DNA from: Escherichia phage buks | DNA: 40,308 bases | Sequence record: MN850616.1 | Direction: 5' to 3' (one strand) | Shown: in pieces, positions 4,525-12,353 of the stretch | How the letters are laid out: every line of letters begins with the position of its first letter | How positions within the stretch are numbered: position 1 is the stretch's first letter | Made by a program: the position numbers and the translations under genes | The notes under the pieces: generated by a model | Databases searched by the model: none | Told to the model about the DNA's origin: nothing | Seen by the model: the letters and a program-made list of their open reading frames with translations, nothing else

Positions 4525-6858
4525 TCAATATCCTGGTTGGCCGCGTGTAGCGCGACGTGATTTAGAAATGGCGCTGTTACTATCCAGCAACGCTGAACTT
4601 ACGGTTTCACTGATTATAATACGCAACCGGCCTTCATCGTCGCGTTCTGTTGCAGCAGAATCAATTCTTCCAGTGGTGTTGTTCACGATAGTAACATTAT
4701 CTCCACCGGATTTAGCGCCATTCTCACCCATAATCTGTCGCATCTGCTCCGCCGTTCGGACACGGGAGGCGTTGGCGGGCATAATCACTTCTGGTTTACC
4801 GCGTTCGGCAATAGTAGACATCTGGCCTGCGGCCAGGTTACCACCCTGTTCTCGGGCGGAGCGAATCTTACCTACGTTTGCTAAACCAGCCGCCACCGCA
4901 GCAGCCGCAGCAACAGGCGCCAGATACGGGCCGACTACCGGTATGGCTGCTGTTGATTTATACGCTTCGACCGCTGATGTGTACGTAGCTATGGTCGCCT
5001 GAGCAATTGCAAATGCTTTGTATGCCGTGGAAGCCTCTCCTAGCGCGGCCCCGATGTTACTAGCCATATTACCGAATGCGGCGCCTGTTGCCTTCGCTCG
5101 GTCTAATGCGTAAGTATCATTCATTGCGTTTAGGGTCTGTTGGTAGGTTTCTTCAGCAATCAAACCCTGCGCATGAAAATCGTTAAGTTTTTGTAGCTTG
5201 ACCTCGTACTGCCGGTCTAATTCCGCAAATTCTCCTTCAGCAAGGGCCTGCATCTGAGCGACATACGCATCTGCGGAGAATTGTTTTTCCAGGCGCTCTT
5301 TCTCGCGTTTATCTAACTCAGCCTGGCGGGCCGTATCCGCCTCGAGCATAATCTGTGTCTTAGCGGTTTCGTATTGCTGGTCACTAAGGAGACGGTTGCT
5401 GTAGAACTCCTGTAGCTTAGTAAGTTGCTCTTCTTGGTTAGCTTGTATCTTCTGGAATACGTCGTCGTTAAGGTGGATTGACTGATAATAGAAATCCTCA
5501 GCGGCTTTCTTCTGGCGTTCGAATGCGTCGACGGATTTCTTGGCGGCCTTGTCTGCGGAATCACCTGTAGAACCGCTGTCCTTACCTGATACCTTAAACT
5601 TACCTAACCCCTCGGCCTTAGCTGCTTCTTTATCGATGTCGTAAGCCGCTCGCTTCAGCGCGATAAGGTCTTCCTGAGCTTCTACTTGTTCGCGGAAACT
5701 TTTCCGTGTCAGGTCAGCCACACCCCTTTGAGTATCCATAGCAAGCGCTAACTGGAAGTTAAGGTTCTTGGCCTCAGCTACCGACTCTCCCGGCGTCAAG
5801 GCGGCCTTTACAAGACGTCCCGCATCCTGAGCACCTTTAACCATATCTTCAAAAAACCGCTCCATTGCCGTAAATTCCTGGGCAATGAAGTCCAGCGCAT
5901 CTGCCGCTGACTCAGCTATCGTAGATGCGGTCTCCTCTCCGCTTCCGGTAATGCTTTCACTGGTGTAAGTCCAGGCGGAGTTCAAAGCGTTTAACGCGTC
6001 TGCAACCGCCCCAAACGCCGCGTCGAATGAAGCCTCTATCGCACCCCCAACATCGGATGCCATGTCGCCCCACATCTGCATCTCGGCTACGAACTCACCG
6101 GATGCGACCTGAGCGTTTATCTCCTGTATCAGGTCGTCAATATAACGTAAAGGTTCCGCCAGTGACCCTACATCGAGACTAGTGGCAAGGGTCATCTTCA
6201 ACTGAGACCACGAGTCTTCTGCGCTCGCAATAGCACCATTGAGCGTGTTCGCCTGGTCAGCCATCGCCCCGGCGAAGTTAACGTTGCCTATGTTGAGGAG
6301 ATATCGCTCAATATCGGCAGCGTTTTTCTTAACTACAGTAGTCGTCCCCTGGAAGGTAAATTCGATATCACTTTGGTTCTGCTTGGCCTTAATGCCGAAT
6401 TCTTTCAGACGTTCGAATTCAAAGGTGCTCGCATCCGCGACGGCCTCAATCATCTGGTTAAGGTCTTTACCCATAGCCGATGCGGTGTTGCCATAGGAGC
6501 GGAGCGCTTCTTCTGATGGAGTGAGGCCTAGAGCTACCAGCTTACGGAATCCTTCAACAGCCTGTTCAAGTCCGTAAGGGGTGTCGCGGGCGAAGTCCTG
6601 TAAGATACTCAGGGCTTGCTTTGCGCCTTGCGTGCTTCCCGTTAGTGTTTTCAGGCTGGCGGACATCTTGTCGAGTTGCCGTTGTGACTCGACTAGTTCC
6701 TGCGCCGCTTTATATGCTGTAGCTGCGACAACGGCAGCCAGGCCAGTTACCGCGGCCCCCGCAACTTTCGCAGATTTAGAGAGATTATCAAGACGGTCTG
6801 ATGTGGCCTTCGCGCCTTGTTCGGTTACCTTTACTACTAAGCTAGCTACATCAGCCAT
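4525..6858 (-). CDS. Tail tape measure protein
   Basis: ~777 aa, Ala/Glu/Lys/Gln-rich helical sequence, located directly after the tail chaperone pair. Start re-set to ATG 6856-6858 (MADVASL...) with GAGGG RBS 8 nt upstream; the track start at 6873 overlaps the upstream ORF. Confidence 0.85.
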   Translation of the reverse strand: MADVASLVVKVTEQGAKATSDRLDNLSKSAKVAGAAVTGLAAVVAATAYKAAQELVESQRQLDKMSASLKTLTGSTQGAKQALSILQDFARDTPYGLEQAVEGFRKLVALGLTPSEEALRSYGNTASAMGKDLNQMIEAVADASTFEFERLKEFGIKAKQNQSDIEFTFQGTTTVVKKNAADIERYLLNIGNVNFAGAMADQANTLNGAIASAEDSWSQLKMTLATSLDVGSLAEPLRYIDDLIQEINAQVASGEFVAEMQMWGDMASDVGGAIEASFDAAFGAVADALNALNSAWTYTSESITGSGEETASTIAESAADALDFIAQEFTAMERFFEDMVKGAQDAGRLVKAALTPGESVAEAKNLNFQLALAMDTQRGVADLTRKSFREQVEAQEDLIALKRAAYDIDKEAAKAEGLGKFKVSGKDSGSTGDSADKAAKKSVDAFERQKKAAEDFYYQSIHLNDDVFQKIQANQEEQLTKLQEFYSNRLLSDQQYETAKTQIMLEADTARQAELDKREKERLEKQFSADAYVAQMQALAEGEFAELDRQYEVKLQKLNDFHAQGLIAEETYQQTLNAMNDTYALDRAKATGAAFGNMASNIGAALGEASTAYKAFAIAQATIATYTSAVEAYKSTAAIPVVGPYLAPVAAAAAVAAGLANVGKIRSAREQGGNLAAGQMSTIAERGKPEVIMPANASRVRTAEQMRQIMGENGAKSGGDNVTIVNNTTGRIDSAATERDDEGRLRIIISETVSSALLDSNSAISKSRRATRGQPGY

Positions 6859-7210
6859 CGTTTCTGCCCTCAAAAATGGCGTCTAATCCCATGATAATTT
6901 CAGATTCAAACATCCCTATATTCTGACCTGAAATAGTGCTATACGCCACTAAATCTGACCAACTAAGTTGCTCTCTTGGGTATAGCTTTACGCCGTCGTC
7001 ATCAACGCGGCGGGTGAATTTAACATCACGATACTTCTCAAAAGTGGTGAGTAGTTCAGGGGGGCATTCAGGCCCGGCGTCCTGCGTTGTTTCTCCCGCG
7101 TCTTTTATTACCCCCATAGCGATAAGCGCGGCTTTGTGCCCATCGGCGATACTGTCAAACTTGCGCCTTTCGTGGCGGGTTATGAAGTTCCAACGGGCAA
7201 ACTGAAACAA
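6851..7210 (-). CDS. Tail assembly chaperone extension (gpT-like), probably expressed as a -1 frameshift fusion with 7216-7632
   Basis: ORF in the -1 frame relative to the upstream chaperone; it has only a TTG start, and its frame is open upstream into the last ~15 codons of the chaperone gene; classic G/GT arrangement before the tape measure gene. Confidence 0.4.
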   Translation of the reverse strand: MFQFARWNFITRHERRKFDSIADGHKAALIAMGVIKDAGETTQDAGPECPPELLTTFEKYRDVKFTRRVDDDGVKLYPREQLSWSDLVAYSTISGQNIGMFESEIIMGLDAIFEGRNDG

Positions 7211-7215
7211 CGCGT

Positions 7216-7632
7216 CTACTTTTCCTGCAATTGACGCAACTGTTCGTGGTGGAATACGACTACATGTTCCGCCAGGCGCTTATATTGGGTGAGAAGAGTC
7301 TCAAGATTTTCCTTAGTGAACTCATCATCGAGACTCCAGCCATTCACCAATTCGAGAGCCAATTGTCGGTTTAGGTCTCCTGCCGCGTCTTCCATTTTTA
7401 AATTGTATTCTGAGAAGTCTTTTTGCTCTTCGCATTTATCCCGAAGCGGTTTTAATTTACCTACCGCCGCTCGGTACGCCAGGGTGAAGGCACGCATAGC
7501 TTTAACCGCGACATCGGCCTCCGGGGAGACAACGTTCAACCATTCTCCTGAATCTGTACCGTCTTTTAAAGGGATCGGCATGCGCGCGCCTTTCTCGGCT
7601 TCGGCTTCGTAGTAAAAATCGCTAAGTTTCAT
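7216..7632 (-). CDS. Tail assembly chaperone (gpG-like)
   Basis: 138 aa acidic protein immediately upstream of the T-like ORF and tape measure gene; ATG 7630-7632; ends ...QLRQLQEK with GGAAAAG just before the stop codon. Confidence 0.55.
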   Translation of the reverse strand: MKLSDFYYEAEAEKGARMPIPLKDGTDSGEWLNVVSPEADVAVKAMRAFTLAYRAAVGKLKPLRDKCEEQKDFSEYNLKMEDAAGDLNRQLALELVNGWSLDDEFTKENLETLLTQYKRLAEHVVVFHHEQLRQLQEK

Positions 7633-7738
7633 AGTAATGCCCTTTGGTTAGTCGGTTACTGGTTGGTAGTTGCACCAGGCGGGAACCACCCGCTTTTCCG
7701 GTGCGACCGTAGACGCCAAATAAGAATAACAAAATAGC

Positions 7739-7767
7739 TTGCATAACCGTTAATAGTGTTCTATTAT
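7739..7767 (+). promoter_or_regulatory. Sigma70-like promoter TTGCAT-N17-TATTAT with overlapping palindromic operator-like site
   Basis: -35 at 7739-7744, -10 at 7762-7767; 16-bp site TAATAGTGTTCTATTA at 7751-7766; conserved CAACTAAACA 9 nt downstream of the -10. Confidence 0.55.
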
Positions 7768-7801
7768 CTCTACGTCAACTAAACAATATGAGGTTAAGAA
7801 C

Positions 7802-7981
7802 ATGAGCGTTTTTATCGGTATTATCGCGTTTATCTATTTCATTCCGTTCCTGGTAGCCTTGCTACGTAATCATAAAGCCAAATTAGGAATATTCGTATGC
7901 AATCTTTTACTGGGGTGGATTCTTCTGCCGTGGGTAGGCGCTCTCATCTGGGCCTGTAACTCTAATGTTAATGGTAAATAA
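7802..7981 (+). CDS. Small membrane peptide, Imm-like superinfection immunity family (59 aa)
   Basis: Hand-translated ORF missing from the track (<60 aa): MSVFIGIIAFIYFIPFLVALLRNHKAKLGIFVCNLLLGWILLPWVGALIWACNSNVNGK. GAGGT RBS 8 nt upstream; two hydrophobic helices with the ...GW..L.W.GALIWA pattern I recall for superinfection-immunity peptides. First gene after promoter 7739-7767. Confidence 0.55.
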   Translation: MSVFIGIIAFIYFIPFLVALLRNHKAKLGIFVCNLLLGWILLPWVGALIWACNSNVNGK

Positions 7982-8043
7982 TCTGGCTAAATTAAACTTA
8001 CATTATTAGAATCAGATTTGTCTTAAACAATCAGGAAATAAGC

Positions 8044-9198
8044 ATGGTCACTCGCAAAATAACAGATGAACAGTTGCAACAAGAGCTAAATGCTGGCCTC
8101 GGCCCTACTGAAATAGCCAAAAAGTATAATATGTCCCGCCGTAATGTTCAGCTTCGTTCCGCGCGCCTGGCAAAGAAAGGAGTTGGCCACGGGCGCGACG
8201 TAAGCCACCTTGTGCCAGATGGGTATAAGATTAAGGGTACGTCGTCACTGGTAGATGAGTTCGGTAACACGAAACTTCAGTGGGTTAAGACTGACGCTGA
8301 CGCCGAGCGCCAGGTCGAGCTGATGCGAGCCGTTGTGGATGAGATGAAAAAAGATTTACCTAAATATAAACCTGTCACTTTGCCCAAAAATGGCACAGAT
8401 GACGACTTATTAAATCTCTACACAATAACGGACCATCACATTGGATCGCTGGCGTGTCGAGAAGAAGGCGGGGATGATTACGATACCACAATCGCGGAAT
8501 CTCTCGCAGTTGACTGGTTCAACAGTGCGGTTTGTATGAGCCCGCAGAGCGGCGAATGTATCATTAACTTCTTAGGGGACCAAATGCACTACGATGGCAT
8601 GAAGGCAATGACCCCCATGAGCGGTCATATTCTTTCTGCTGATAGTCGCCTGTTTAAAATGATACGTACCGCCATTAAGGTTATCAAGCTGGCTGTCTCG
8701 CTGTGCTTGCGAAAACACAAGAAGGTTAAACTTCTTATCTGTGAGGGTAACCACGACCTTAGTTCTTCCCTGTGGCTCCGAGAGATGTTCTACGAGGTGT
8801 ATACAAATGAGCCTCGCGTCGAGGTTAACCGGGAGGTGTCGCCGTATTATGCGTATAAGTTCGGGGATTGTATGATTTCAGCACATCACGGGCATTGTTC
8901 TAACTTTACTAAAGTAGAGCAGTCTATAATAGGTAAGTATCGGGAGATGTACGGGCAGTGTAAGTTCACATATGTCCATACGGGTCACCTCCACCACCGG
9001 GCGGTTAAAGAGACTAATCTTCTAATTGTTGAGCAACACCAGACATTAGCGGCTAAAGATGAGTATTCTAGTAAAGGCGGTTATTATTCAGGTAGAAGCG
9101 CAAATGTGATTACATACCATAAACGTTACGGGGAGGTGTCCCGCATAAGTATACCTGTTGAAATGCTGCGAGACATAAACCCCAAATCAACATACTAA
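8044..9198 (+). CDS. HTH domain fused to calcineurin-like metallophosphoesterase
   Basis: 384 aa; N-terminal HTH-like segment (GPTEIAKKYNMSRRNVQLRSARL); metallophosphatase motifs in order: TITDHHIG, GDQMHYDG, EGNHD, SAHHGH, HTGHLHH. Confidence 0.7.
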   Translation: MVTRKITDEQLQQELNAGLGPTEIAKKYNMSRRNVQLRSARLAKKGVGHGRDVSHLVPDGYKIKGTSSLVDEFGNTKLQWVKTDADAERQVELMRAVVDEMKKDLPKYKPVTLPKNGTDDDLLNLYTITDHHIGSLACREEGGDDYDTTIAESLAVDWFNSAVCMSPQSGECIINFLGDQMHYDGMKAMTPMSGHILSADSRLFKMIRTAIKVIKLAVSLCLRKHKKVKLLICEGNHDLSSSLWLREMFYEVYTNEPRVEVNREVSPYYAYKFGDCMISAHHGHCSNFTKVEQSIIGKYREMYGQCKFTYVHTGHLHHRAVKETNLLIVEQHQTLAAKDEYSSKGGYYSGRSANVITYHKRYGEVSRISIPVEMLRDINPKSTY

Positions 9199-9213
9199 AA
9201 TGTAGGTGAAAGG

Positions 9214-9714
9214 ATGGATTGGAGTGAGGTTTTTAGCTACAAAAACGGCGTCCTATACTGGAAAGTCAAATCATGTCGCCGTAACGATGTGAATGTAGGG
9301 GATGTGGCCGGGAGTTTGTGTAAAAACGGCTATTGGTATGTCATGTTCGGTAACCGTAAGTTTAAAAGGTCTAGGGTGGTGTATGAGATGTTCTCAGGTA
9401 AGATTCCAAAAGGATTTGTCATAGACCACACCAACCATGATACCTGTGACGACAGAATTGAAAACCTGTCATGCAAATCCAGAAGGGACAACATGGTTAA
9501 CGTGAAAAGGCGCAAAGATAATACCTCAGGAGTTACGGGTGTGGCGCGGAAAGGAAAAGCTAAGTGGAGAGCTTATGCCGTTGTCAACGGTAAGCAGATT
9601 AGTAAAACATTTGACAGAATAGAGGACGCTTTCGCGGAAAGAATTTACATGTCTGTGGCTAATAGGTTCCACATAAATCATGGACTGACAACATTCAACA
9701 ACGGCTATAAATAG
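9214..9714 (+). CDS. Free-standing HNH homing endonuclease with AP2-type DNA-binding domain
   Basis: 166 aa; HNH-type motif (VIDHTNHDTCDDRIENL) followed by AP2-like segment (SGVTGVARKGKAKWRAYAVVNGKQISKTF); AGGTGA RBS. Confidence 0.8.
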   Translation: MDWSEVFSYKNGVLYWKVKSCRRNDVNVGDVAGSLCKNGYWYVMFGNRKFKRSRVVYEMFSGKIPKGFVIDHTNHDTCDDRIENLSCKSRRDNMVNVKRRKDNTSGVTGVARKGKAKWRAYAVVNGKQISKTFDRIEDAFAERIYMSVANRFHINHGLTTFNNGYK

Positions 9715-9723
9715 GGCATAAAG

Positions 9724-9954
9724 ATGACTAACAAATACAATCGAACAATGACAAATACTGACGGAGATAGCATTACCTGTGATGTGTACGACGTTCTGAG
9801 GGCATTTGATATCCGCGACCCGGCACTACAGCATGCGTTGAAGAAACTGTTGTGTATGGGATTGCGGGGGCACAAGGACACAGGAACCGACTTAGCAGAA
9901 GCAATTGAAAGTCTGGAGAAGTTACGGAAATACCGTAGTAATATTGATGAGTGA
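9724..9954 (+). CDS. Hypothetical protein
   Basis: 76 aa ORF followed by a rho-independent terminator; no recognisable motif. Confidence 0.45.
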   Translation: MTNKYNRTMTNTDGDSITCDVYDVLRAFDIRDPALQHALKKLLCMGLRGHKDTGTDLAEAIESLEKLRKYRSNIDE

Positions 9955-9955
9955 G

Positions 9956-9982
9956 AAAAAGGCCCCTTTCGGGGCTTTTTTT
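9956..9982 (+). terminator. Rho-independent terminator
   Basis: Stem GGCCCC / GGGGC with TTTC loop followed by a 7-nt T-run, right after the 9724-9954 gene. Confidence 0.7.
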
Positions 9983-10064
9983 ATCGTCACGATAAAGAAT
10001 CTGATTTGAACGATAAGAATGTTCGAAGTTAAATATATCTACACCAACAAGAGGGGATGAAACC

Positions 10065-10736
10065 ATGAACGAATTAATGAATGTTAGTGAAGCACAAACC
10101 ATGTCCAGCCGTGAGATTGCGGAATTGACGGGGAAAGAACACGACAACGTACGACGCGATATATTAAAAATGGCACAGGAACTTTCCCTCAATTTTGAGG
10201 AAAAGGTTTTGCCTTCAAACGGTGGCAGACCAAGTAAGGTATTTCTCTTAGACAAAGAAAATACATTAATCCTGATTTCAGGGTACAGCATCAAAATGCG
10301 CGCTGCCATCATCCGCCGTTGGCAGGAACTGGAGTCACAAGCGAGCAAACCATCCTTACCGGTGCCCAAGACAATGGGGGAGGCTTTAAGGTTGGCTGCG
10401 GACTTGTGGGAGGAGAAAGAACGCCTTGCGCTTGAGAACAAGGAAATGGCACCAAAAGCTGATGTCTACGACCGCATCATCGACAGAAATAACTTGTACA
10501 ACGCGACGCAGGTTGCCCAGAAGTTCGGTCAATCTGCCGTGTGGATGAATAAACAACTTGAACAATTTGGCGTATACAATCGCTCCGTAAAACGCGGTCG
10601 TGTCTTCCAGCAATGGTTCATCGATAAGGGTTACGGCATTATGCGTGAAACAGAAACTGGTCATTCACAGGCTATGTTCTTCGCTGAAGGTGAAATGTGG
10701 ATTATCGGTAAGTTAACGGCAGAAGGTTTGATTTAA
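10065..10736 (+). CDS. Rha-family phage regulatory protein / antirepressor-like (Rha N-domain plus KilAC-like C-domain)
   Basis: 223 aa; N-terminal ...MSSREIAELTGKEHDNVRRDILKM... resembles the Rha regulatory domain; AGAGGGGA RBS; followed by a bidirectional terminator. Confidence 0.65.
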   Translation: MNELMNVSEAQTMSSREIAELTGKEHDNVRRDILKMAQELSLNFEEKVLPSNGGRPSKVFLLDKENTLILISGYSIKMRAAIIRRWQELESQASKPSLPVPKTMGEALRLAADLWEEKERLALENKEMAPKADVYDRIIDRNNLYNATQVAQKFGQSAVWMNKQLEQFGVYNRSVKRGRVFQQWFIDKGYGIMRETETGHSQAMFFAEGEMWIIGKLTAEGLI

Positions 10737-10764
10737 AACTAAGGCCCCTTTCGGGGCCTTTTTC
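10737..10764. terminator. Bidirectional rho-independent terminator between convergent genes
   Basis: AAGGCCCC-TTTC-GGGGCCTT hairpin flanked by A-run upstream and T-run downstream; sits between the Rha-like gene (+) and the major tail gene (-). Confidence 0.7.
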
Positions 10765-11934
10765 TTAGGCGTACTTAATGCGCTGGATAACAATTGAAGA
10801 CTGGAACTGGTTACCGGTTGCCTGTCCCTCAAGAGAAAGGGTGACAGATTCGGGACCACCGATTTCCGGAGTTGCTGATGTCAACGAAGCGCGTTTTAAG
10901 GTGAAACTCATGGCACCGTCTGGGCCGTTCAGAACAGAAGATACCTCCATTTGCGTTTCGTTCAGGAATTTATTCAATAACGTCATGTCGTACAGCTTAC
11001 CCGCCAACGAGAAGGTGTTAGCCGCGCGGCCACGTTCGACAAATGCCACGCTATTATTCCCTAACTCGAACTGTGCGGACGCGCTGTTGTCGTTAGTAAT
11101 GGTGAACGTGTCGATAAGTTTAAGCGGAGCGGCGCCGTCATAGGCGGATACGTCAACCGATGCAAACGGACGGGCGCTAAAATTGGTCGTGAAATCTGAA
11201 CCACTCGGCAGTGCTTGTAGGATTTCCTGATTAAGACCAATGAACGGGAATGAGCCTGTAACCATCGCGTTAACGGCTTGTTCGATGGTGAACCCTGTAA
11301 ATTCAACACCACGAGTTATGATGTACGAATCAGGATTTCCGCATTTACCTTTCAACCATGTCAGGATTGAATAGGTTTTACACAAGTTACCGGTTTCAAG
11401 TTTATCTGCGATACGCAAATCGGCTTGGGCGTCTGATTCAGCGGTAAGGGTGTGCTGGATGCCCGCTCCGGTTATAACTGTAGCTGTGGCAGCCGTGACC
11501 ATGAACGCTTTGTTGTTATTTCCGGATAAACCGTCGAATTGCACTAGGTCGCCTACCTCAACGCCATCTGTTACAAAGCTGCCGGTGGTGCGTGTGAAAG
11601 TTTTCGCCACCGGGTCTACGGTAACGCTGATTCCAGATTTAGTGGAACCTGCTACCCAGGAACTGGTCATTGCGCCAGCAAGCAACTCATCCTGGCTTTC
11701 CGCGCTAAGTTCAATAGCATATTCACCAGTTACCTGACGGTTACCGGTGCGGATAGATGATGTTTCACGGCTGCCGTCCAGTTCATTAGAGATGAGGGCG
11801 TCGCGGGTTACGGCGGGAATACCCCCAGTGTTGCGCAGTGGTTGCCATACCGGGTTAGCGGGTGTTACCCCCGGCGTCGTCTCAAGAACGTAAAACTGCG
11901 CGGCCATCGCGCCCTTATATGGTTGTAACGCCAT
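10765..11934 (-). CDS. Major tail protein
   Basis: 389 aa ORF that is the last structural gene before the chaperone/tape-measure block (separated only by the plus-strand island); call by synteny. Confidence 0.55.
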   Translation of the reverse strand: MALQPYKGAMAAQFYVLETTPGVTPANPVWQPLRNTGGIPAVTRDALISNELDGSRETSSIRTGNRQVTGEYAIELSAESQDELLAGAMTSSWVAGSTKSGISVTVDPVAKTFTRTTGSFVTDGVEVGDLVQFDGLSGNNNKAFMVTAATATVITGAGIQHTLTAESDAQADLRIADKLETGNLCKTYSILTWLKGKCGNPDSYIITRGVEFTGFTIEQAVNAMVTGSFPFIGLNQEILQALPSGSDFTTNFSARPFASVDVSAYDGAAPLKLIDTFTITNDNSASAQFELGNNSVAFVERGRAANTFSLAGKLYDMTLLNKFLNETQMEVSSVLNGPDGAMSFTLKRASLTSATPEIGGPESVTLSLEGQATGNQFQSSIVIQRIKYA

Positions 11935-12353
11935 TATCTAATCCTCGCTGTAAATGCTATGAAATTAATTGAGAGAGGCCTCTTCGCCCATCCATTCTCA
12001 ACAATAAGAGGACCGAGGCTTACTGATTGTACCTCAGCACAGATTTCGTTACGACTAAAACAGTTACCGGCGGCGAAGGCGGCGTTTAGCTTATCAGCTA
12101 ATCGGTTAATAGGAGCGCTACCCAAGGCCGACCCGACGTTAATGTCTACCTGATAAACACCCGCCCGTTGTTCAGTCCAGAACAAGTCAGCTTGTTCAGT
12201 ATCTGACAACAGCATATAACTCGCAAGATATGGGGTATCTGTAGACGTAGGTGCGTCTATGTTCTCCAGTGCGACCTTTATCCCGTTGTTCGTGCCAAAT
12301 GCTACCAGTGCCGTGTCGAATGCTTTTGTTAAATCCTCGAAATATGTTGCCAT
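11934..12353 (-). CDS. Virion structural protein (tail completion / head-tail joining region)
   Basis: 139 aa; TAATG stop/start overlaps with both neighbours, part of the coupled structural operon. Confidence 0.4.
   Translation of the reverse strand: MATYFEDLTKAFDTALVAFGTNNGIKVALENIDAPTSTDTPYLASYMLLSDTEQADLFWTEQRAGVYQVDINVGSALGSAPINRLADKLNAAFAAGNCFSRNEICAEVQSVSLGPLIVENGWAKRPLSINFIAFTARIR

What the first reader, a model, noticed from the sequence alone, without database searches (positions are those of the whole stretch)
7205..7265. Candidate programmed -1 frameshift joining the two tail chaperone ORFs (G/GT-like) at a non-canonical site
The chaperone ORF 7216-7632 ends ...CAG GAA AAG TAG. 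The downstream ORF 6851-7210 is in the -1 frame, has only a TTG start, and its frame is open upstream only as far as a TAA about 15 codons before the G stop. A fusion would therefore have to form within roughly the last 45 nt of G. No canonical XXXYYYZ heptamer is present; the nearest candidate is GGAAAAG just before the stop codon.
Basis: partly seen in the sequence, partly recalled or inferred. Interest (0 to 1): 0.35.

Follow-up and report, generated by a model that had tools for sequence, protein, structure and literature searches.

The report
Tail chaperone G/GT −1 frameshift site
This is the ordinary lambda-type "G/GT" tail-assembly-chaperone frameshift of a Jersey-like Salmonella phage; ribosomes most likely slip back one base on A_AAG at the last codon of G, right before its stop codon, and the same site is already annotated in sister phages.

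Summary
On the minus strand, G (7632..7216, 138 aa) ends CAG GAA AAG TAG. The next ORF is in the −1 frame and runs to 6851, overlapping the tape-measure start. One detail is off: the −1 frame is open for 61 nt before the G stop, not about 45.

The window is Salmonella phage blauehaus (Jerseyvirus). In 84 distinct relatives (14 clusters at 70% protein identity, down to 34% identity), G always ends NNA_AAG followed by TAG or TAA, and a −1 ORF of about 121 codons follows. In two relatives the −1 frame opens only 7 nt before the stop, which pins the shift to A_AAG. Some relatives carry canonical G_GGA_AAG or A_AAA_AAG at the same position. The TTG at 7210 is CTG in most relatives, so an independent start is not conserved.

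No conserved downstream RNA structure was found. The invariant adjacent stop codon is the only candidate stimulator.

The fusion is already annotated in Shelanagig (identical junction, mentioned in its genome paper), K1ind1, fPoEco01 and Shewanella phage 3/49. I found no experimental proof. Verdict: real, ordinary, already known at the annotation level. The single-tRNA, stop-adjacent site is a minor point of mechanistic interest.

The parts
7216..7632 (-). Gene G: tail assembly chaperone, 138 aa, 15.9 kDa. ATG at 7632, stop TAG at 7218-7216.
   Evidence: ORF list. Pfam Phage_TAC_4, E 2.1e-8. PHROG 15027 positions 1-138, E 2e-49. Mass.
7219..7225 (-). Shift site G_GAA_AAG. The 0-frame codons are GAA 7224-7222 and AAG 7221-7219. 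The -1 frame reads GGA 7225-7223 and AAA 7222-7220. The invariant core is A_AAG (7222-7219).
   Evidence: Sequence. AAG is the last codon in 83/83 distinct relatives and the preceding codon is always NNA. It is the only in-frame Z_ZZN tetramer in the overlap in 63/84 relatives and the only one present in all. The shift window is 7 nt in L065 and L066.
7216..7218 (-). G stop codon TAG, immediately 3' of the shift site. [quoted passage not shown]
   Evidence: TAG in 59 and TAA in 24 of 83 relatives, never separated from AAG. The following base is A in 73 and C in 11 of 84, never T or G. A stimulatory role is inferred, not shown.
7280..7282 (-). TAA that closes the -1 frame upstream. A productive shift must occur 3' of it, within 7279..7219.
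   Evidence: Sequence; script (-1 frame open from -61).
6851..7219 (-). T segment in the -1 frame: GTA 7219-7217 through GGC 6856-6854, stop TGA 6853-6851, 122 codons. Joined to G it gives GT: 260 aa, 29.7 kDa, junction ...LQEK|VDALFQFARW...
   Evidence: Pfam Phage_TAC_18, E 1.6e-18. PHROG 15027 (a 259-position profile of fused proteins) positions 134-259 align from residue 16 of the -1 translation, which places the junction at K138. Translation and mass.
7208..7210 (-). TTG codon that ORF callers use as the start of a separate 119-aa protein. It is most likely just an internal Leu codon (L142 of GT).
   Evidence: TTG in 22/83 relatives and CTG in the others. In the rest, the first possible start lies 10-34 codons downstream or is absent. 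Leu is invariant at this column.
4525..6858 (-). Tape measure protein gene. Its ATG at 6858-6856 overlaps the T stop (ATGGCTGA).
   Evidence: PHROG 1538, E 1e-216. Start taken from the annotation of NC_073173.

Best explanation
This is a programmed -1 ribosomal frameshift that makes a G-T fusion tail assembly chaperone, in the manner of phage lambda gpG/gpGT.

Most ribosomes translate G (138 aa) and terminate at TAG 7218-7216. A minority slip back one base while tRNA-Lys sits on the last sense codon: AAG (7221-7219) re-pairs with AAA (7222-7220). They then read GTA GAC GCG TTG... in the -1 frame to TGA 6853-6851. The product is a 260-aa GT protein with the junction ...QEK-VDAL...

The essential slippery element is the tetranucleotide A_AAG. 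Enterobacteria have a single tRNA-Lys that reads both AAA and AAG. Re-pairing of the upstream tRNA-Glu (GAA to GGA, a second-position G:U) is at best a minor help, because relatives carry GCA, GTA, AAA or GGA at that codon.

I propose that the invariant adjacent stop codon provides the pause, with peptidyl-tRNA-Lys slipping in the P site while UAG waits for RF1. No RNA structure appears to be involved.

By analogy with lambda, the G part of GT would bind the tape measure protein encoded immediately downstream, and the T part would recruit the tail tube protein.

Shown here: the ORF geometry, the location of the site, and coding conservation across the junction. Inferred: that the shift actually occurs, its efficiency, the role of the stop codon, and the assembly function.
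For: - Family assignment: G matches Pfam Phage_TAC_4, the -1 ORF matches Phage_TAC_18, and a tape measure gene follows directly.
- Fused profile: PHROG 15027 is a 259-position profile of fused proteins. It matches G at positions 1-138 and the -1 ORF at positions 134-259.
- Invariant site: all 90 related loci (83-84 distinct sequences, 14 clusters at 70% identity) end G with NNA_AAG_TAR and continue with a -1 ORF of about 121 codons. The +1 frame is never open for long.
- Codon bias: the last codon is AAG in 83/83 against a 0.34 background. The penultimate codon ends in A in 83/83 across E, A, V, K and G codons, where the background use of A-ending codons is 0.13-0.66. If the 14 clusters were independent, the rough chance would be about 3e-7 and 1e-6 respectively.
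- Tight window: the -1 frame opens only 7 nt before the stop in L065 and L066, and 16-28 nt in many others.
- Canonical relatives: G_GGA_AAG (L040) and A_AAA_AAG (L078, L080, Shewanella phage 3/49) occupy the same position.
- Junction conservation: K138, V139, A141 and L142 are invariant, which places translated -1-frame codons upstream of any start codon. TTG is present in only 22/83.
- Frame relationship: in tblastn against 50,697 phage records, 490 records cover at least 80% of GT. In every one of the 60 sampled rows with full coverage, the match is in two pieces, one per frame.
- Model: the AlphaFold model of GT (pLDDT 82, pTM 0.72) has one helix, 120-172, running through the junction, with block pLDDT of 88-92.
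- Literature: A_AA.G is by far the most shift-prone tetramer in E. coli (PMC4066793). NNA_AAG sites are used naturally by B. subtilis cdd (A_CGA_AAG) and IS1222 (G_CGA_AAG) (PMC5009743).
- Prior annotation: the same fusion is a joined CDS in Shelanagig (junction identical over 60 nt), K1ind1, fPoEco01 and Shewanella phage 3/49.
Against: - I found no protein-level evidence (MS, western or reporter) for any member of this phage group.
- G_GAA_AAG was used as the deliberately 'less slippery' control in a reconstituted E. coli system and gave mainly 0-frame product (PMC6924986).
- Tetramers without a stimulator are barely above background in vivo, 0.147% against 0.112% (PMC4066793).
- No conserved stimulatory structure was found. 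The RNAalifold consensus energy is -0.25 kcal/mol. The window's own fold (-32.6 kcal/mol, z -2.4) is not supported by covariation.
- A slow-to-decode A site is said to matter more for +1 than for -1 shifts (PMC5009743). The proposed role of the stop codon is therefore the weakest step.
- In this phage specifically, a TTG lies 5 nt after the stop with an AGGA 12 nt upstream of it. Some independent initiation cannot be excluded.
Confidence: 0.87

Rival explanations
1. Same GT fusion, but made by classical tandem slippage. tRNA-Glu and tRNA-Lys slip together on G_GAA_AAG during translocation, as on lambda's G_GGA_AAG. The adjacent stop codon plays no mechanistic role and merely marks where G happens to end.
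For: GGAAAAG is the majority heptamer, in 60 of 83 relatives. GAA to GGA re-pairing keeps positions 1 and 3 and gives G:U at position 2, which the PRFect authors note as a possible basis for such motifs (PMC10885494). One relative has G_GGA_AAG and three have A_AAA_AAG. Current kinetic models place -1 slippage in translocation (PMC6924986).
Against: 23 of 83 relatives have C_GCA, A_GCA, G_GCA or G_GTA before AAG. There the P-site tRNA cannot re-pair in the -1 frame, so tandem re-pairing is not the conserved requirement. G_GAA_AAG gave mainly 0-frame product in vitro at all EF-G concentrations. The stop codon is adjacent in 84/84 relatives, with a following base of only A or C.
Confidence: 0.3
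2. No fusion is made. The downstream ORF is translated on its own from TTG 7210, either by weak de novo initiation or by termination-reinitiation after the G stop 5 nt upstream. The product is a free 119-aa (13.6 kDa) T-like protein.
For: TTG 7210 is a permitted start codon and lies 5 nt after TAG. AGGA (7226-7223) lies 12 nt upstream of it. GenBank annotates blauehaus and many other Jerseyviruses this way.
Against: The codon is CTG in most relatives. Only 22/83 have TTG, and elsewhere the first ATG, GTG or TTG is 10-34 codons downstream or absent. Even so, the residues V-x-A-L-Y-x-F-A-x-W encoded before those starts are the best-conserved part of the region. This model does not explain the invariance of A_AAG, of the -1 frame relationship, or of third-position A in the penultimate codon. 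As I recall the lambda work, T is made only as part of GT.
Confidence: 0.07
3. The fusion arises from transcriptional slippage. RNA polymerase would add or drop an A in the A-run of GGAAAAG, giving a subpopulation of mRNAs with G and T in frame.
For: A short A-run (4 A) overlaps the site. Transcriptional slippage is a known alternative route to such fusions (PMC5009743, title and scope).
Against: The run is only 4 A here and 3 A in 20 of 83 relatives (GCAAAG, GTAAAG). From general knowledge, that is far below the 6-9 or more homopolymer bases normally needed. The invariance of the G in AAG and of the adjacent stop is not explained either.
Confidence: 0.02

Closest known systems
Phage lambda gpG/gpGT tail assembly chaperone frameshift (Levin, Hendrix & Casjens 1993; Xu, Hendrix & Duda 2004, 2013, 2014; summarised in PMC5009743)
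   Same: Two overlapping ORFs lie immediately upstream of the tape measure gene. The second is in the -1 frame and has no conserved start. The shift occurs near the 3' end of G on a motif ending A_AAG. Lambda's heptamer G_GGA_AAG differs from this one by a single base, and relative L040 carries exactly the lambda heptamer.
   Different: The heptamer here is G_GAA_AAG, which gives a second-position mismatch for the P-site tRNA. The slip codon is the very last sense codon, so the stop is directly adjacent. As I recall, in lambda the G stop lies a few codons further downstream. The proteins belong to other Pfam TAC families (TAC_4 and TAC_18) and have no detectable sequence relative among solved structures.
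Annotated GT frameshift products of Guernseyvirinae and relatives: Salmonella phage Shelanagig (NC_073195; PMC6763656), Escherichia phages K1ind1 (NC_041897, ORF21A/21B) and vB_EcoS_fPoEco01 (MT711526), Shewanella phage 3/49 (NC_025466)
   Same: These are orthologous genes. Shelanagig has the identical 60 nt before the stop and the identical 37 nt printed after it, and 99.6% protein identity. All carry a two-piece joined CDS from the G start to the T stop.
   Different: Nothing differs biologically. The blauehaus record, like most Jerseyvirus records, lists two separate hypothetical proteins instead.
Tetra- and hexanucleotide -1 sites NNA_AAG: B. subtilis cdd (A_CGA_AAG), IS1222 (G_CGA_AAG) and synthetic A_AA.G constructs (PMC5009743; PMC4066793)
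   Same: Single-tRNA slippage of tRNA-Lys from AAG to AAA, without cognate re-pairing of the upstream tRNA. These are low-efficiency events whose level depends on the two bases 5' of A_AAG.
   Different: Those sites rely on an upstream Shine-Dalgarno-like sequence or a downstream structure or pseudoknot. Neither is conserved here. The only conserved neighbour is the stop codon.
Burkholderia phage KL1 gp18/gp19 (predicted site GGGAAAC immediately upstream of the TGA stop; PMC3483164)
   Same: A tail-chaperone -1 site that abuts the stop codon of the upstream ORF.
   Different: It is a canonical X_XXY_YYZ heptamer in an unrelated phage, and it is also only a prediction.

Membership tests
Lambda-type G/GT tail assembly chaperone pair expressed by programmed -1 frameshift (Xu et al. 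2004 definition) | Two ORFs located between the tail tube gene and the tape measure gene, directly upstream of the tape measure gene | tested here: met
   G and T are followed by the tape measure gene, PHROG 1538, E 1e-216, with its start overlapping the T stop. The tail terminator and a 389-aa tail protein lie upstream, but a 3-kb cassette on the opposite strand separates them from G.
Lambda-type G/GT tail assembly chaperone pair expressed by programmed -1 frameshift (Xu et al. 2004 definition) | The second ORF overlaps the first in the -1 frame and lacks its own conserved start codon and ribosome-binding site | tested here: met
   The -1 relationship holds in all 90 loci. The TTG is present in only 22/83, and a start is otherwise 10-34 codons downstream or absent.
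Lambda-type G/GT tail assembly chaperone pair expressed by programmed -1 frameshift (Xu et al. 2004 definition) | A slippery sequence inside the overlap that allows tRNA re-pairing in the -1 frame | tested here: met
   The A_AAG tetramer is invariant. The full heptamer is non-canonical here (G_GAA_AAG) but canonical in some relatives. A_AA.G is experimentally the best tetramer in E. coli (PMC4066793).
Lambda-type G/GT tail assembly chaperone pair expressed by programmed -1 frameshift (Xu et al. 2004 definition) | Homology or fold of known tail assembly chaperones | tested here: met
   Pfam Phage_TAC_4 scores 34.9 bits against a cut-off of 21.1, and Phage_TAC_18 scores 67 bits against a cut-off of 27. 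The fold comparison is inconclusive: HK97 TAC 2ob9_A ranks only 31st, E 4.7, TMt 0.49. There are no sequence relatives in the PDB.
Lambda-type G/GT tail assembly chaperone pair expressed by programmed -1 frameshift (Xu et al. 2004 definition) | A GT fusion protein is actually produced at a low, fixed ratio to G (about 1:30 in lambda) and is required for tail assembly | not testable with these tools
   I found no proteomic or reporter data. The Shelanagig paper only states that the slippery sequence is present.
Canonical X_XXY_YYZ tandem-slippage heptamer | Both the P-site and the A-site tRNA keep at least 2 of 3 standard pairs, including positions 1 and 2, after the -1 shift | tested here: not met
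   G_GAA_AAG: GAA to GGA gives a second-position G:U mismatch, noted as unfavourable in PMC6924986. In 23/83 relatives the P-site codon (GCA or GTA) cannot re-pair at all.
Structure-stimulated -1 PRF (dnaX, IS3 or IS911 type) | A conserved downstream hairpin or pseudoknot 5-9 nt from the site, or an upstream SD-like element | tested here: not met
   The RNAalifold consensus is -0.25 kcal/mol with 3 pairs. The window's MFE mapped on 30 relatives gives 63.5% paired cells. Helix 1 pairing equals the shuffled control and shows no covariation. No relevant Rfam match was found. By eye, no SD-like sequence lies 10-14 nt upstream in the window. That last point was not tested formally.

The most novel reading that the evidence does not exclude
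The Guernseyvirinae-type tail chaperones may be a natural family-wide example of structure-independent -1 frameshifting. In this reading a single tRNA-Lys slips on A_AAG in the P site, and the only stimulator is the immediately adjacent, weak-context stop codon (UAG or UAA followed by A or C). The GT:G ratio would then be set by competition between RF1/RF2 and slippage. That would make tail assembly sensitive to release-factor activity, and it would provide a clean model for 'shifty-stop' -1 recoding.
Probability: 0.35. Interest if true: 0.35.

Novelty: already known. Interest (0 to 1): 0.15.

Why it matters
The main value is for annotation. The blauehaus record, and most of the several hundred related Jerseyvirus and Kagunavirus records (348-512 matching records, by search), list two separate hypothetical proteins or give the second ORF an artificial TTG or CTG start. 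They should carry a joined G/GT CDS with the junction at K138|V139.

There is also a modest mechanistic point. The family shows that the conserved requirement is only A_AAG plus an adjacent stop, with no canonical heptamer and no RNA structure. That matters for frameshift-prediction tools, which miss many such sites, and it offers a simple system to test stop-codon-assisted -1 slippage. It does not change what is understood about tail assembly.

Tried and rejected
- Downstream stimulatory RNA structure. Single-sequence folds of 69 relatives showed no common hairpin. RNAalifold on 30 diverse sequences gave essentially nothing. The window's own fold (z -2.4) did not hold up: 63.5% of cells paired overall, and its outer helix, which begins 5 nt after the site, pairs no better than column-shuffled controls. 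A GCTGT/ACAGC long-range pairing seen by eye was tested with mis-set columns and was not pursued. The formal consensus fold did not recover it.
- Rfam scan of 6800-7800. It returned only two sub-threshold chance hits, snoZ173 and int-alpA.
- Promoter and terminator scan of 6700-8100. Nothing was found. A TTGACG...TATTAA seen by eye upstream of G fails the tool's criteria.
- The search for homologous proteins with the GT fusion. It returned only 4 short G-like hits and no named fusions, so it was uninformative.
- PDB sequence search and Foldseek against the PDB. No significant relatives appeared. HK97 TAC showed up only at E 4.7.
- Literature search for GGAAAAG as a named phage shift site. Nothing phage-specific turned up, but it led to the in vitro study that used G GAA AAG as a poorly slippery control.
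- Other readings considered and rejected: a +1 frameshift, because the +1 frame is never open for more than about 200 nt; transcriptional slippage, because the A-run is too short; and a natural in-frame G-T fusion in relatives, none of which appeared among the sampled tblastn matches.

Full report
**1. What is in the sequence**

On the minus strand, an ORF runs from ATG 7632 to TAG 7218-7216. It encodes 138 aa and ends ...CAA TTG CAG GAA AAG TAG. The next ORF found by the ORF lister starts at TTG 7210 and ends at TGA 6853-6851. Since (7632-7210) mod 3 = 2, it lies in the -1 frame relative to the first ORF.

Reading the -1 frame upstream from TTG gives GCG GAC GTA AAA GGA ... back to a TAA at 7282-7280. 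The -1 frame is therefore open for 61 nt before the G stop.

The overlap holds no X_XXY_YYZ heptamer. The only in-frame Z_ZZN tetramer in it is A_AAG at the last codon.

**2. Identity and context**

The segment is 100% identical to Salmonella phage blauehaus (MT074473 / NC_073173), genus Jerseyvirus, subfamily Guernseyvirinae.

- G matches Pfam Phage_TAC_4.
- The -1 ORF matches Pfam Phage_TAC_18.
- The following 782-aa ORF is the tape measure protein. Its ATG (6858-6856) overlaps the T stop.
- PHROG 15027 is a 259-position "tail assembly chaperone" profile. It matches G at positions 1-138 and the -1 translation at positions 134-259. The profile was therefore built from fused proteins whose junction corresponds to K138.

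Further upstream on the same strand lie a tail terminator and a 389-aa tail protein. A 3-kb cassette on the opposite strand (endonuclease, exonuclease, superinfection immunity) separates them from G.

**3. Comparative test of the site**

I collected 90 related loci from GenBank phages and IMG/VR, plus Shewanella phage 3/49. That gave 83-84 distinct G-T sequences in 14 clusters at 70% G identity, reaching down to 34% identity.

- Every one ends G with NNA_AAG followed at once by TAG (59) or TAA (24). Every one continues with a -1 ORF of about 121 codons. The +1 frame is never open for long.
- The last codon is AAG in 83/83. AAG makes up only 34% of Lys codons elsewhere in G.
- The penultimate codon is GAA (60), GCA (16), GTA (4), AAA (2) or GGA (1). 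It always ends in A, although the amino acid varies and A-ending codons are 13-66% of the synonymous choice.
- Treating the 14 clusters as independent gives rough chance values near 3e-7 and 1e-6. These numbers are illustrative only, because the clusters share ancestry.
- The upstream limit of the -1 frame varies from 205 nt down to 7 nt. In L065 and L066 a -1-frame TAA leaves only C_GCA_AAG available. The shift must therefore occur on the last one or two codons.
- One relative carries lambda's canonical G_GGA_AAG (L040). Three carry dnaX-type A_AAA_AAG (L078, L080, Shewanella phage 3/49) at exactly this position.

**4. Fusion or separate protein**

The TTG at 7210 is present in only 22 of 83 relatives, and the rest have CTG. 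In those, the first ATG, GTG or TTG lies 10-34 codons downstream or is absent from the first 40 codons.

The alignment of conceptual fusions nonetheless shows K138, V139, A141 and L142 as invariant. The motif V-x-A-L-[YF]-x-[FY]-A-x-W, directly after the junction, is among the best-conserved stretches. Those codons are therefore translated in the -1 frame without a start of their own.

In tblastn against all GenBank phages, 490 records cover at least 80% of GT. Every sampled row with full coverage has its match in two pieces, one per frame.

An AlphaFold model built from this alignment (pLDDT 82, pTM 0.72) places a single long helix, residues 120-172, across the junction with high local confidence. 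That is compatible with a continuous polypeptide but is not proof of one.

**5. Mechanism**

The invariant element is A_AAG. According to the literature read here:

- It is the most shift-prone -1 tetramer in E. coli, reaching 5.6% with a strong pseudoknot but staying near background without a stimulator (PMC4066793).
- Enterobacteria have one tRNA-Lys for both AAA and AAG (PMC5009743).
- NNA_AAG sites are used naturally in B. subtilis cdd and in IS1222.

In this phage, P-site re-pairing (GAA to GGA) leaves a second-position G:U. G GAA AAG was the deliberately "less slippery" control in a reconstituted system and gave mainly 0-frame product (PMC6924986). Relatives with GCA or GTA cannot re-pair at all. 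The conserved mechanism is therefore single-tRNA slippage.

I found no conserved stimulatory structure:

- The consensus fold energy is -0.25 kcal/mol.
- The window's own 96-nt fold (-32.6 kcal/mol, z -2.4) is not maintained by covariation.
- Its outer helix pairs no better than shuffled columns.
- No relevant Rfam family matches.

The only other invariant neighbour is the stop codon itself, which is followed by A or C in 84/84 relatives. I therefore propose that peptidyl-tRNA-Lys slips in the P site while the stop codon awaits a release factor. This step is inference. The review notes that slow A-site decoding matters more for +1 than for -1 shifts, although it cites a -1 case (PEMV) that depends on a nearby stop. 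The expected efficiency is low, which is what a G:GT ratio like lambda's (about 30:1) would need.

**6. Comparison with what is known, and novelty**

This is the lambda G/GT arrangement, which is conserved in most long-tailed phages (Xu et al. 2004, as cited).

The same fusion is already deposited as a joined CDS in four phages:

- Salmonella phage Shelanagig, with an identical junction. [quoted passage not shown]
- Escherichia phage K1ind1, as ORF21A/21B.
- Escherichia phage fPoEco01.
- Shewanella phage 3/49.

PRFect lists a "twofour" motif class among annotated tail-chaperone shifts; by its naming rule this would cover GGAAAA. It also notes G:U re-pairing of tRNA-Glu on GGA.

The finding is thus real but already known at the level of prediction and annotation. 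Blauehaus and most sister records simply lack the joined feature. I found no experimental demonstration for this phage group.

**7. Verdict**

- Confidence that a -1 ribosomal frameshift on A_AAG (7222-7219) produces a 260-aa GT is about 0.87.
- Confidence that the adjacent stop is the stimulator is about 0.35-0.5.
- Independent initiation at the TTG is about 0.07.
- Interest is low (0.15). The residual value lies in correcting annotation and in a tidy natural example of a tetranucleotide, stop-adjacent -1 site.

Noticed in passing
window 7802-12353: The tail gene order is interrupted. The tail terminator (11934-12353, minus strand) and a 389-aa tail protein (10765-11934, minus strand) are separated from G/GT/TMP by about 3 kb. 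That stretch includes plus-strand genes for an endonuclease (9214-9714), a DNA repair exonuclease (8044-9198) and superinfection immunity (7802-7981). G therefore appears to start its own transcription unit.
   Followed up: partly
window 6851-6858: The T/GT stop TGA (6853-6851) overlaps the tape measure ATG (6858-6856) in the sequence ATGGCTGA. This suggests translational coupling of the tape measure gene to ribosomes that finish GT, or to ribosomes that enter independently.
   Followed up: no
window 7215 (base after the G stop); 84 related loci: The base following the G stop is A (73) or C (11) in all 84 distinct relatives, never T or G. From memory, these are the weaker termination contexts in E. 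coli. The pattern could equally reflect amino-acid preference (D, K, A, E, N, T) at GT residue 140.
   Followed up: partly
window 7120-7215 (minus strand): The 96 nt after the stop fold to -32.6 kcal/mol (z -2.4; 5 of 200 shuffles fold as well). The outer helix starts 5 nt after the shift site. Pairing potential is retained in 75% of cells across relatives, but column composition fully explains that and there is no covariation.
   Followed up: yes
L033 (IMGVR_UViG_638275545_000001), around 1047-1461: In this otherwise close relative (89% identity), the G reading frame breaks after 37 codons. It looks like a sequencing error or an indel in that record rather than biology.
   Followed up: no
L011 (Salmonella phage AG11, NC_041991) 1013-1369; L010 (Serratia phage Otaku) 1100-1363: Public annotations give the T ORF an artificial start: a CTG codon in AG11, and a downstream start in Otaku that cuts off the conserved N-terminal T residues. 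This shows how often the joined GT feature is missed.
   Followed up: partly
window 7622-7744 (minus strand): A 40-aa ORF lies just upstream of G and overlaps its start. One relative (vB_SalS_ABTNLsp11241) annotates the equivalent as a hypothetical protein. Its significance is unknown.
   Followed up: no
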